Below, in pieces: positions 16,536 to 35,387 of a DNA stretch of 64,000 bases (positions within the stretch are counted from its first letter, which is position 1; the number at the start of each line of letters is the position of its first letter). The notes beneath the pieces were generated by a model, which was given only the letters and a program-made list of their open reading frames with translations, had not been told where the DNA came from and searched no databases. The stretch is from Escherichia coli (lineage in GTDB: Bacteria > Pseudomonadota > Gammaproteobacteria > Enterobacterales > Enterobacteriaceae), in assembly GCF_013315695.1 (NCBI RefSeq), contig NZ_CP054353.1. One strand, given 5' to 3'. A program made the position numbers and the translations under genes.

Positions 16536-16770
16536 AGATATAAAACCCTTATATATTAATACGATTGTGCTTATGTTGTTTATGTCATGTGCTTTTGCAG
16601 TTTTCGACTATACCATCAAGAATGTGACGGTAAGCAAGAAAAAAATGACCCAGGAAAGCAAATTAATAACGAGAGTAATCTCATAACCAAATGCGATAAC
16701 TCAGACGCTAAAGTTATGCCGCCCGGCTACCGTTATTAGTAGCAGAGACAATAACGTTAAGGAGTTCCCT

Positions 16771-17043
16771 GTGAGTCGAGCATTGTTCGCCGTAGTATTA
16801 GCATTTCCATTAATTGCACTGGCTAACCCGCATTATCATCCGGACGTGGAGGTAAACGTACCGCCAGAAGTGTTCAGTTCAGGCGGGCAGTCAGCGCAGC
16901 CTTGTACTCAGTGCTGCGTTTATCAGGATAAAAATTATTCTGAAGGAGCGGTAATTAAAGCCGAGGGAATACTGCTGCAATGCCAGCGTGATGACAAAAC
17001 CCTTAGCACTAATCCGCTGGTCTGGCGGCGCGTAAAGCCATAA
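16771..17043 (+). CDS. ynjH: small secreted protein of unknown function (DUF1496 family)
   Basis: 90-aa ORF, apparent GTG start, N-terminal signal peptide; position next to gdhA matches E. coli ynjH. Confidence 0.75.
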   Translation: MSRALFAVVLAFPLIALANPHYHPDVEVNVPPEVFSSGGQSAQPCTQCCVYQDKNYSEGAVIKAEGILLQCQRDDKTLSTNPLVWRRVKP

Positions 17044-17416
17044 ACGCCTCTAATAGTGGAATGTCAGCAGGGGCCAGCGGATATTGCAGCGCCTCTTCAG
17101 GTGAGCACCAGACCAGCGCCTGATGTTCATGTGCCTGTAACGTCCCGTGGAAGTCGGGTACGTGCCAGGCATGAAGATGGATAATCCGCCCCGAAACTTC
17201 TCGCTGATGGCTGGCAACATATTCACCCACAGCTGCTTCGATGCCCAGTTCTTCGCGTAACTCACGCACCAGCGCCTGCCGCTGGCTTTCATCCGGCTCG
17301 ACTTTACCACCGGCAAACTCCCATAATCCCGCCTGATCGCTATGGGTGGGGCGTTGCGCGAGTAAAATTTTGCCATCACGTTCGATGATGGCGGCAACAA
17401 CTTCAATCATTTTCAT
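17009..17416 (-). CDS. nudG: Nudix hydrolase (CTP/dCTP pyrophosphohydrolase)
   Basis: 135-aa ORF with Nudix box (GGKVEPDESQRQALVRELREELGI). Confidence 0.9.
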   Translation of the reverse strand: MKMIEVVAAIIERDGKILLAQRPTHSDQAGLWEFAGGKVEPDESQRQALVRELREELGIEAAVGEYVASHQREVSGRIIHLHAWHVPDFHGTLQAHEHQALVWCSPEEALQYPLAPADIPLLEAFMALRAARPAD

Positions 17417-17502: not shown

Positions 17503-18123
17503 GTGCTAGACCGCCATCTTCATCCCCGGATTAAACCGTTGTTGCATCAGTGCGTGCGGGTTCTTGATAAACCGGGCATTACGCCAGATGGTTTAACATT
17601 AGTGGGATTTGCCATCGGCGTGCTGGCACTGCCTTTTCTGGCGCTGGGCTGGTATCTGGCGGCGCTAGTCGCCATTTTGTTGAACAGGCTGCTTGATGGT
17701 CTGGATGGCGCACTGGCGCGGCGCAGAGGGCTTACCGACGCGGGCGGCTTTCTCGATATTTCTCTCGATTTTCTCTTTTACGCGCTGGTGCCGTTTGGTT
17801 TTATTCTTGCTGCACCGGAGCAAAATGCGCTGGCAGGCGGCTGGCTGCTGTTTGCGTTTATCGGCACGGGCAGCAGTTTTCTCGCTTTTGCTGCGCTGGC
17901 GGCGAAACATCAGATTGATAATCCTGGTTATGCGCATAAATCGTTTTATTATCTGGGCGGGTTAACCGAAGGCAGCGAGACGATTTTGCTGTTTGTTCTG
18001 AGTTGCCTCTTTCCGGCCTGTTTTCCGTGGTTTGCGTGGGTATTTGGTGCGTTGTGCTGGATGACGACCTTTACGCGGGTGTGGAGTGGGTATCTGACGC
18101 TGAAGTCGCTCCAGCGTCAGTAA
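17503..18123 (+). CDS. ynjF: CDP-alcohol phosphatidyltransferase-family membrane protein
   Basis: ORF 17497..18123 trimmed to a GTG start with a TAAGGAG Shine-Dalgarno 6 nt upstream; D-G-x-x-A-R...G motif region (DGLDGALARRRG). Confidence 0.8.
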   Translation: MLDRHLHPRIKPLLHQCVRVLDKPGITPDGLTLVGFAIGVLALPFLALGWYLAALVAILLNRLLDGLDGALARRRGLTDAGGFLDISLDFLFYALVPFGFILAAPEQNALAGGWLLFAFIGTGSSFLAFAALAAKHQIDNPGYAHKSFYYLGGLTEGSETILLFVLSCLFPACFPWFAWVFGALCWMTTFTRVWSGYLTLKSLQRQ

Positions 18124-18131
18124 TTGCAATG

Positions 18132-33886: not shown

Positions 33887-35387
<1,501 letters not shown>

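What the first reader, a model, noticed from the sequence alone, without database searches (positions are those of the whole stretch)
17009..17043. Convergent genes ynjH and nudG overlap by 35 bp at their 3' ends
The plus-strand ynjH ORF ends at 17043 and the minus-strand nudG ORF ends at 17009, so both coding regions share 35 bp with no room for a terminator between them. Such overlaps can produce transcriptional interference or antisense regulation. Alternatively the ynjH stop may be mis-assigned.
Basis: seen in the sequence. Interest (0 to 1): 0.25.

Follow-up and report, generated by a model that had tools for sequence, protein, structure and literature searches.

The report
Conserved ynjH–nudG tail-to-tail gene overlap
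Two real E. coli genes on opposite strands share their last 35 bases; the arrangement is old, conserved across enteric bacteria and already published, so it is genuine but ordinary.

Summary
ynjH (16771-17043, +) and nudG (17009-17416, -) share 35 bp, exactly as RefSeq annotates them.

It is not a stop-codon error. YnjH's last residues (TNPLVWRRV) are the most conserved part of the protein and are predicted to form a confident beta-strand.

The overlap is ancient. 48 of 58 Enterobacteriaceae loci, plus Salmonella, have it in the same phase, at 35, 41 or 44 bp.

Inside the overlap the DNA evolves under the ynjH frame (pN/pS 0.06, against 4.2 in the nudG frame). NudG's last residues are the antisense read-out of YnjH's C-terminus. 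The nudG stop moves between two positions through synonymous changes in one ynjH Thr codon.

No terminator, stable fold or Rfam family lies here.

Published RNA-seq shows five times more antisense than sense RNA over nudG. This fits the sigma-28-driven ynjH transcript running across nudG, although an internal antisense promoter is not excluded. nudG sense RNA does not rise in RNase III mutants, so regulation is unproven.

The overlap is already in print: GWIPS-viz 2018 Figure 1 and the ExcludonFinder 2025 E. coli list. Interest is low. The main practical point is that knock-outs of either gene are likely to damage the other.

The parts
16771..17043 (+). ynjH CDS (90 aa, DUF1496/YnjH family; GTG start, TAA stop). 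The first 18 codons look like a Sec signal peptide ending ALA|N; this is inferred by eye and was not run through a predictor.
   Evidence: ORF list; Pfam PF07383 E 1.7e-24; RefSeq annotation; orthologue alignment A2; AF2 model with the last strand at E83-88 and a mean pLDDT of 92 for residues 81-90.
17009..17416 (-). nudG CDS (135 aa Nudix CTP pyrophosphohydrolase; ATG start, TAG stop).
   Evidence: ORF list; Pfam NUDIX; PDB 2RRK 'CTP pyrophosphohydrolase' covers residues 1-135; AF2 mean pLDDT 94 with C-terminal helix 118-130.
17009..17043 (.). The 35-bp dual-coding overlap. On the + strand it holds 2 nt of the ynjH Thr80 codon, codons N81-P90 and the TAA stop. On the - strand it holds 2 nt of the nudG Phe125 codon, codons M126-D135 and the TAG stop. 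Phase: ynjH codon position 1 faces nudG position 1, position 2 faces 3, and position 3 faces 2.
17011..17037 (+). Sub-segment ruled by the ynjH frame (N81-K89). Variation among 49 sequences is almost only at ynjH third positions, which are nudG second positions.
   Evidence: Per-column counts; ynjH frame pS 0.52, pN 0.031, ratio 0.058; nudG frame pS 0.054, pN 0.229, ratio 4.2.
17038..17044 (-). Sub-segment where the NudG constraint takes over. The antisense of the Phe125-Met/Ile126 codons (CAT AAA on the + strand) contains the ynjH TAA stop. YnjH's last residue varies freely (P/T/E/Q/A/S).
   Evidence: 17040-17044 nearly invariant; 17038 and 17039 variable; F125 invariant.
17003..17011 (-). 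The two alternative nudG stop positions: TAG at 17009-17011 (used here, 35 bp) and TAA/TGA at 17003-17005 (used by relatives, 41 bp). Which one is used depends on the third base of ynjH Thr80 (17010: T gives the TAG stop).
   Evidence: 21 loci at 35 bp, 26 at 41 bp, 1 at 44 bp; 17010: T 22, G 20, C 4, A 3; at least 15 parsimony changes at 17010.
17032..17034 (+). ynjH Val88 codon. Only GTA (35) and GTG (14) are seen. GTT or GTC would create a stop at nudG codon 128.
   Evidence: GTT plus GTC make up 47.5% of Val codons elsewhere in the block; at least 6 changes at the site, all A<->G. Suggestive only.
16709..16736 (+). Probable sigma-28 (FliA) promoter of ynjH: TAAAGTTA-N12-ACCGTTAT.
   Evidence: Conserved in the alignment of upstream regions from 14 taxa; Trabulsiella has the canonical GCCGATAA. 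FliA dependence of ynjH: RNA-seq 29 against 2, qRT-PCR 1 against 0.02 in a fliA deletion; conserved in Salmonella. The assignment of these exact bases is an inference.
16759..16764 (+). Shine-Dalgarno AAGGAG of ynjH.
   Evidence: Read from the sequence; an A/G-rich AAGGA-like block is kept in most of the 14 upstream sequences aligned.
17185..17340 (+). C-rich, G-poor stretch of the ynjH read-through RNA inside nudG (C 0.33-0.43, G 0.17-0.22). It is a candidate Rho loading region.
   Evidence: Composition script. This is an inference from composition only.
17503..18123 (+). ynjF, the next gene on the ynjH strand. It could receive ynjH read-through transcription.
   Evidence: RefSeq annotation. 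Co-transcription was not tested.

Best explanation
This is a genuine, anciently fixed tail-to-tail coding overlap between two expressed genes. ynjH encodes a small DUF1496 protein with an apparent Sec signal peptide (secretion is inferred) and is transcribed by the flagellar sigma factor FliA. nudG encodes a Nudix nucleotide pyrophosphohydrolase. Shown: the shared DNA is shaped almost entirely by YnjH, whose last beta-strand (NPLVWRRV) it encodes. NudG's residues 127-135 are whatever the antisense of that strand spells. NudG's structurally important part ends at Phe125-Met126, whose antisense codons supply the ynjH stop. The nudG stop moves between two sites as a ynjH Thr codon drifts synonymously. 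Weaker evidence suggests nudG must stay open past codon 128, so that its C-terminal helix can finish. Shown from published RNA-seq: because no intergenic DNA or terminator exists, each mRNA ends inside the partner gene, and antisense RNA over nudG is about five times more abundant than nudG sense RNA. Inferred: that antisense RNA is ynjH read-through and is ended by Rho inside nudG. Inferred: the overlap is a frozen by-product of lost spacer DNA, held in place because any indel would damage one of the two proteins. On this view it is not a dedicated regulatory device, and any damping of nudG when the flagellar regulon is on is a side effect.
For: Both genes are real and annotated this way. 48 of 58 species-level loci found with YnjH have the overlap, at 35, 41 or 44 bp and always in the same phase. 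In the 48 loci analysed as one block (47 of these plus K-12), the ynjH stop lies a constant 373 bp from the nudG start. Salmonella and E. fergusonii have 41 bp. Frame dominance is shown by pN/pS of 0.058 for ynjH against 4.2 for nudG in the overlap. The pattern switches to nudG third-position variation immediately after 17044. YnjH's C-terminus is invariant and is a confident strand. NudG's invariant columns stop at F125, its helix runs 118-130, and residues 131-135 are coil with pLDDT 74. Where nudG is not next to ynjH (Pluralibacter, L021) it ends AFITAKR*. Where nudG is absent, YnjH's tail is unchanged. The stop toggles at least 15 times. There is no terminator, no significant fold (z from -0.74 to +0.83) and no Rfam match. 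RNA-seq gives nudG antisense 45.4 against sense 9.0 RPM, and ynjH sense 80.0 against antisense 2.7 RPM. nudG sense does not rise in rnc mutants. Tight or overlapping convergent pairs are common locally: 2 of 9 pairs in this window overlap and 2 more have gaps under 10 bp.
Against: Antisense RNA exceeding sense RNA over nudG is what a regulatory excludon would look like. p19-captured (RNase III-cut) dsRNA reads map to nudG at 6-35 RPM despite its low mRNA level. The arrangement and the sigma-28 promoter are both conserved, so selection on the transcriptional arrangement cannot be excluded. The RNA-seq numbers are single libraries per strain. The source of the antisense reads (read-through or an internal promoter) was not resolved. 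Third-position variability inside the overlap is somewhat lower than outside it, so the nudG frame or the RNA imposes some extra constraint.
Confidence: 0.62

Rival explanations
1. Functional excludon. The terminator-less, FliA-driven ynjH transcript is selected to act as an antisense RNA over nudG. It would work through RNA polymerase collision and/or RNase III cleavage of the duplex, so that NudG is lowered when the flagellar regulon is on.
For: nudG-ynjH is in the E. coli 'excludome'. nudG antisense exceeds sense five-fold. dsRNA fragments map to nudG. The FliA promoter and the overlap are both conserved across genera.
Against: nudG sense RNA is not raised in rnc-14 or rnc-38 (3.8 and 5.6 against 9.0 RPM). 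No nudG or ynjH duplex appears in the held list of abundant p19 dsRNAs, whereas cho and ves do. Both genes are weakly expressed, so collisions should be rare (inference). No reciprocal-expression data were found. In several genera ynjH sits next to xthA instead, with its C-terminus unchanged.
Confidence: 0.25
2. Non-contiguous operon. ynjH transcription reads through the antisense of nudG into the co-oriented ynjF, coupling ynjH and ynjF expression while opposing nudG.
For: ynjH and ynjF lie on the same strand with nudG between them on the other strand. There is no terminator-like site on the + strand between 17043 and the ynjF start. Antisense read density over nudG (0.11 RPM per nt, my arithmetic) exceeds ynjF sense density (0.03 RPM per nt).
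Against: It is not among the three non-contiguous operons reported for E. coli by ExcludonFinder. Salmonella and other genera lack ynjF at this position. ynjF was not named among the FliA targets in the passages read. A C-rich tract inside nudG could end the RNA first.
Confidence: 0.1
3. Annotation artefact. ynjH is not translated, or its true stop lies upstream of 17009, so there is no real coding overlap.
For: None was found. The only basis is that ynjH is small and of unknown function.
Against: The full-length Pfam match reaches residue 89. The invariant C-terminal residues and pN/pS of 0.058 lie exactly in the overlap. The last strand is confidently predicted. There is no in-frame stop before 17041. 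ynjH is down at both mRNA and protein level at 42 C. Ribo-seq tracks for both genes are shown in GWIPS-viz Figure 1.
Confidence: 0.02

Closest known systems
cho-ves convergent overlap, in the same window (34500-34540)
   Same: It is a tail-to-tail coding overlap of 41 bp. One partner (ves) is a FliA-dependent 'non-flagellar' gene, like ynjH, and the other (cho) is a genome-integrity gene, like nudG. It is also listed as an E. coli excludon.
   Different: The proteins are unrelated. Abundant RNase III-cut dsRNA duplexes are reported in cho and ves but not in nudG or ynjH. Its conservation and frame dominance were not analysed here.
Excludons (overlapping transcripts of opposite-strand neighbours, e.g. 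the Listeria flagellar mogR locus; E. coli catalogue in ExcludonFinder 2025, PMC12288877)
   Same: The genes are opposite-strand neighbours whose transcripts overlap. A long antisense tail covers the neighbour. The pair is listed in the catalogue.
   Different: Here the coding sequences themselves overlap, not only the UTRs. The defining reciprocal repression has not been shown for this pair, and nudG sense RNA does not rise without RNase III. The Listeria comparison rests on my own knowledge and was not tested.
mscL-arfA convergent pair of E. coli (PMC10070815)
   Same: It is a convergent E. coli gene pair that the paper describes as linked by antisense RNA crosstalk (title and abstract). It also appears in the ExcludonFinder convergent list.
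   Different: That case has experimental support for regulation. From my own knowledge, its overlap lies in the 3' untranslated parts. This pair has a true dual-coding segment and no functional test.
Bidirectional intrinsic terminators between convergent genes (Ju et al. 2019, cited from memory; the paper is not held)
   Same: It concerns the same problem of how to end two converging transcripts.
   Different: No hairpin with a U-tract is present on either strand here.
Overprinted or extended C-termini in prokaryotic overlapping genes (the stop-codon-loss model; e.g. PMC3887535 for same-strand overlaps)
   Same: NudG's tail looks like a read-on into the neighbour until the next chance stop, and the stop position drifts.
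   Different: This is an antiparallel overlap, and it is far older and more stable than the short overlaps usually discussed.

Membership tests
Convergent (tail-to-tail) overlapping protein-coding gene pair | Both ORFs are genuine protein-coding genes. | tested here: met
   Pfam DUF1496 and NUDIX matches; PDB 2RRK for NudG; purifying selection in both genes outside the overlap (pN/pS 0.16-0.26); protein-level and Ribo-seq reports.
Convergent (tail-to-tail) overlapping protein-coding gene pair | The 3' ends of the two CDSs share nucleotides on opposite strands. | tested here: met
   17009-17043, 35 bp.
Convergent (tail-to-tail) overlapping protein-coding gene pair | The overlap is conserved in relatives, so it is not a strain-specific stop-codon mutation. 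| tested here: met
   48 of 58 loci across many Enterobacteriaceae genera, plus Salmonella and E. fergusonii, all in the same phase.
Excludon | Transcripts of the two opposite-strand neighbours overlap. | tested here: met
   This rests on published data read here. The pair is listed in at least 50% of 58 RNA-seq sets. Antisense reads are found over both genes.
Excludon | Expression of one gene lowers the other (mutually exclusive expression). | not tested
   No data on nudG in fliA-deletion or FliA-induced cells were found in the papers and supplements held.
Excludon | RNase III processing of the sense/antisense duplex affects mRNA level. | tested here: inconclusive
   p19-captured dsRNA maps to nudG at 6-35 RPM. 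nudG sense RNA is 9.0 (wild type), 3.8 (rnc-14) and 5.6 (rnc-38) RPM, so it does not increase. These are single libraries.
Bidirectional intrinsic terminator | A G+C-rich hairpin flanked by an A-tract and a U-tract between the convergent genes. | tested here: not met
   The pattern scan found none. Folds are no more stable than shuffles. The only perfect inverted repeat (9 bp, 53 nt apart) is not conserved.
Non-contiguous operon | One RNA spans two co-oriented genes across an opposite-strand gene. | not testable with these tools
   The gene order ynjH(+), nudG(-), ynjF(+) fits. No long-read evidence was available. The pair is not in the published list of three such operons.
FliA (sigma-28) regulon member (ynjH) | A sigma-28 type promoter and FliA-dependent expression. 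| tested here: met
   A conserved TAAAGTT(A/T)-N12-ACCGTTAT lies upstream. Published ChIP-seq, RNA-seq and qRT-PCR support FliA dependence.

The most novel reading that the evidence does not exclude
The flagellar sigma factor uses terminator-less class-3 transcripts as programmed antisense RNAs against genome-maintenance genes. ynjH would read over nudG, which cleans the nucleotide pool, and ves would read over cho, an excinuclease. Both pairs lie in this window, and both have conserved 35-41 bp coding overlaps that leave no room for a terminator. Motile cells would then lower these functions. Alternatively, ynjH-ynjF would form a non-contiguous operon wrapped around nudG.
Probability: 0.07. 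Interest if true: 0.55.

Novelty: already known. Interest (0 to 1): 0.15.

Why it matters
It matters mainly in practice.

- **Knock-outs.** Because the two genes share 35 bp, a clean deletion or insertion in one is likely to change the other.
  - The published ynjH::thyA allele keeps only 17014-17037 as its downstream arm. It therefore removes nudG's stop codon.
  - Standard Keio-type deletions keep only the last 21 nt of a gene (from my memory of Baba et al. 2006; to be checked). A Keio ynjH deletion would then cut NudG's tail. A Keio nudG deletion would remove YnjH's invariant R87-V88.
  - Phenotypes assigned to either gene should be read with this in mind. One example is the 2026 screen in which ynjH mutants had low c-di-GMP.
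- **Teaching example.** The locus shows cleanly how one reading frame dominates an antiparallel overlap.
- **Possible biology.** If the antisense RNA turned out to control nudG, it would link the flagellar regulon to nucleotide-pool sanitation. Nothing yet shows this.

Tried and rejected
1. **Hidden terminator or structured RNA in the overlap.** The consensus scan found nothing. Four folds had z-scores from -0.74 to +0.83. Rfam gave no hit at E<=1.
2. **The 9-bp perfect inverted repeat** ATCCGCTGG / CCAGCGGAT (17012-17020 and 17074-17082). It arises because both genes encode Pro-Leu with CCG-CTG. Pairing is lost in other genera with no compensatory changes, so it is rejected as a conserved structure.
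3. **Published 3'-end maps.**
   - The Adams 2021 Term-seq supplements have no ynjH or nudG entry.
   - No supplements are held for Dar & Sorek 2018 or Conway 2014.
   - Ju 2019 and Peters 2012 are not held.
4. **A literature search for 'nudG'** without whole-word matching returned only papers on 'nudging'. That search was wasted.
5. **'Mis-assigned ynjH stop'** is rejected on conservation.
6. **Is NudG's tail entirely free?** Partly rejected. GTT and GTC are absent at Val88, which suggests nudG must stay open past codon 128. With only six or more inferred changes, all transitions, this is suggestive and not significant.

Full report
**Observation**

The window contains a + strand ORF at 16771-17043 (GTG start, TAA stop, 90 aa). 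It also contains a - strand ORF at 17009-17416 (ATG start, TAG stop, 135 aa). They share 17009-17043, which is 35 bp.

- The first ORF matches Pfam DUF1496 over the whole profile (residues 33-89, E 1.7e-24).
- The second matches NUDIX (residues 4-125).
- The second is also near-identical to the chain of PDB 2RRK, 'CTP pyrophosphohydrolase'.
- The DNA is E. coli. It occurs in 5423 of 5426 complete genomes.
- RefSeq annotates ynjH and nudG with exactly this 35-bp overlap in K-12 and in strain MS 21-1, which is 100% identical over the query stretch.

**Is the ynjH stop right?**

Yes.

- In 41 orthologues, the invariant YnjH columns include T80, N81, P82, L83, W85, R87 and V88. This is the stretch encoded by the overlap.
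- An AlphaFold model built on that alignment places residues 83-88 in a beta-strand. The mean pLDDT for residues 81-90 is 92.
- YnjH is reported as down-regulated at both mRNA and protein level at 42 C.
- Ribo-seq tracks for both genes are the example shown in Figure 1A/B of the GWIPS-viz 2018 paper. Its legend calls them 'overlapping genes nudG and ynjH'.

**How old is the overlap?**

A scan of one genome per species with YnjH gave 58 loci.

- In 48 of them nudG converges on ynjH with an overlap of 35 bp (21 loci), 41 bp (26 loci) or 44 bp (1 locus). The phase is always the same.
- In the 48 loci analysed as one ungapped block (47 of these plus K-12), the ynjH stop lies a constant 373 bp from the nudG start.
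- The genera include Escherichia, Citrobacter, Trabulsiella, Enterobacter, Leclercia, Kosakonia, Buttiauxella, Cedecea, Siccibacter, Franconibacter, Kluyvera and Phytobacter.
- Salmonella enterica and E. fergusonii, fetched separately, have 41 bp.

The exceptions are informative.

- In Pluralibacter, another gene separates the two, and NudG ends early (…AFITAKR*).
- In a C. koseri assembly, nudG is truncated.
- In eight loci nudG is absent. In five of these ynjH is followed by a convergent xthA instead. The YnjH C-terminus is kept (…STNPLVW(R/H)RV…) in all eight.

**Which frame rules the shared DNA?**

I compared 49 distinct sequences (the window, K-12 and 47 scan loci).

- From 17011 to 17037, variation sits almost only at ynjH third codon positions. 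These are nudG second positions.
- From 17044 onward, the pattern flips to nudG third positions.

| Segment and frame | pS | pN | pN/pS |
|---|---|---|---|
| Overlap core, ynjH frame | 0.52 | 0.031 | 0.058 |
| Overlap core, nudG frame | 0.054 | 0.229 | 4.2 |
| Rest of nudG | – | – | 0.25 |
| 11 nudG codons adjoining the overlap | – | – | 0.07 |

- NudG's invariant columns end at F125.
- Its predicted C-terminal helix spans residues 118-130. Residues 131-135 are coil at pLDDT 74.
- At 17038-17044 the constraint switches to NudG. The antisense of the Phe125-Met/Ile126 codons reads CAT AAA on the + strand and contains the ynjH TAA. YnjH's last residue is free.
- The nudG stop is TAG when ynjH Thr80 is ACT. 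Any other Thr codon lets nudG run two codons further, to TAA or TGA. Position 17010 needs at least 15 changes on a neighbour-joining tree, so the stop has moved many times.

There is one hint of residual nudG constraint. ynjH Val88 is only ever GTA or GTG. GTT and GTC together make up 47.5% of Val codons elsewhere in the block, and here they would stop NudG at codon 128, inside its last helix. With at least six inferred changes, all of them transitions, this is suggestive only.

**Transcription**

No intrinsic-terminator-like site lies on either strand near the 3' ends.

- Folds of both strands are no more stable than shuffled sequences.
- Rfam has no match.
- The only perfect inverted repeat is not conserved.

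ynjH is an established FliA (sigma-28) target in E. coli and Salmonella. A conserved TAAAGTT(A/T)-N12-ACCGTTAT lies at 16709-16736 on the ynjH strand.

Huang et al. 2020, Table S1c, gives these total RNA-seq values in RPM:

| Gene and read direction | Wild type | rnc-14 | rnc-38 |
|---|---|---|---|
| nudG sense | 9.0 | 3.8 | 5.6 |
| nudG antisense | 45.4 | 29.2 | 17.0 |
| ynjH sense | 80.0 | 79.0 | 27.4 |
| ynjH antisense | 2.7 | 0.9 | 2.5 |

- Per nucleotide (my arithmetic on the wild-type values), the antisense signal over nudG is 0.11 RPM. That is about 38% of the ynjH sense density of 0.29 RPM and five times the nudG sense density of 0.022 RPM.
- The same paper notes that sense reads normally far exceed antisense reads.
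- The simplest reading is that the ynjH transcript runs on across nudG. An internal antisense promoter is not excluded.
- A C-rich, G-poor tract at about 17185-17340 is a candidate Rho entry site. This is an inference from composition only.
- ExcludonFinder (2025) lists nudG-ynjH, and the neighbouring ynjE-ynjF, among 165 convergent excludons of MG1655.

A regulatory effect is not shown.

- nudG sense RNA does not rise in either RNase III mutant (see table).
- No abundant p19-captured duplex is listed for nudG or ynjH.
- No data on nudG in fliA-deletion cells were found.

**Interpretation**

I judge the overlap itself to be a frozen by-product of lost spacer DNA. Any indel in it would damage YnjH's last strand or NudG's last helix, which explains its stability. 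The antisense RNA over nudG follows from there being no room for a terminator.

Whether cells exploit this as an excludon, or as a ynjH-ynjF non-contiguous operon, remains open. I consider both less likely than the passive explanation.

Tight convergent junctions are common locally. Of nine convergent pairs in this window, two overlap (nudG/ynjH at 35 bp and cho/ves at 41 bp) and two have gaps of 3 and 8 bp.

**Novelty and value**

The overlap is annotated, has been pictured in a published figure and is catalogued as an excludon, so it is already known. The new material here is:

- the depth of conservation;
- the clean switch in frame dominance;
- the drifting nudG stop.

These are tidy but unsurprising.

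The practical point is that mutations made in one gene are likely to alter the other. The published ynjH::thyA design removes the nudG stop codon. This matters for phenotypes now being assigned to ynjH, such as reduced c-di-GMP.

Noticed in passing
window 34500-34540: There is a second convergent coding overlap in the same window. The ves ORF ends at 34540 on the + strand, and cho (- strand, 34500-35387) ends at 34500, so they share 41 bp. Like ynjH, ves is one of the four 'non-flagellar' FliA-dependent genes named by Fitzgerald 2014. cho-ves is also in the ExcludonFinder list, and abundant RNase III-cut dsRNA duplexes are reported in both genes.
   Followed up: partly
window 16709-16760: The FliA motif printed for ynjH in Fitzgerald 2014, Table 2 (TAACGTTATTGTCTCTGCTACTGATAAC), is the reverse strand of 16733-16760. 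It therefore points away from ynjH, and it is not conserved outside Escherichia. A better-conserved sigma-28-like element, TAAAGTTA-N12-ACCGTTAT, lies on the ynjH strand at 16709-16736.
   Followed up: partly
window 17014-17037 (primer JW4931 in the supplement of PMC4183435): The published ynjH::thyA deletion keeps only 17014-17037 as its downstream homology arm. It therefore removes nudG's stop codon and part of its last codon. The 'ynjH' mutant probably also carries an altered NudG C-terminus.
   Followed up: no
window 18124-18131, and the tcyP/ydjO junction: Other convergent pairs in the window are almost as tight. ynjF and ynjE are separated by 8 bp and are also listed as an excludon. tcyP and ydjO are separated by 3 bp.
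   Followed up: no
window 17012-17020 and 17074-17082: There is a perfect 9-bp inverted repeat, ATCCGCTGG / CCAGCGGAT. It arises because ynjH (N-P-L) and nudG (Y-P-L) both use CCG-CTG on opposite strands. It is not conserved in other genera.
   Followed up: yes
L009 (Citrobacter koseri NCTC10786), L010 (Trabulsiella guamensis), L055 (Enterobacter sp. EA-1): nudG looks damaged in these genomes. It has an early stop that leaves a 6-bp gap to ynjH in L009. It is an internally deleted remnant in L010. The tblastn hit is split, suggesting a frameshift, in L055. ynjH is intact in all three.
   Followed up: partly
L029 and L030 (Enterobacter spp.): Where the nudG-ynjF-ynjE block is missing, ynjH converges on xthA with only a 3-bp gap. 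ynjH therefore also lacks terminator space in that arrangement.
   Followed up: no
window about 53,700-55,600 (record NZ_CP146670.1 2920589-2922487): In the strain that is 100% identical over the query stretch, a type III secretion effector gene, espL1, is annotated between thrS and yniD.
   Followed up: no
PMC13031359 (literature): A 2026 transposon screen found ynjH mutants enriched among cells with low c-di-GMP, and it links YnjH to the RdcA/RdcB-DgcE system. This is the first functional hint for the DUF1496 protein.
   Followed up: no
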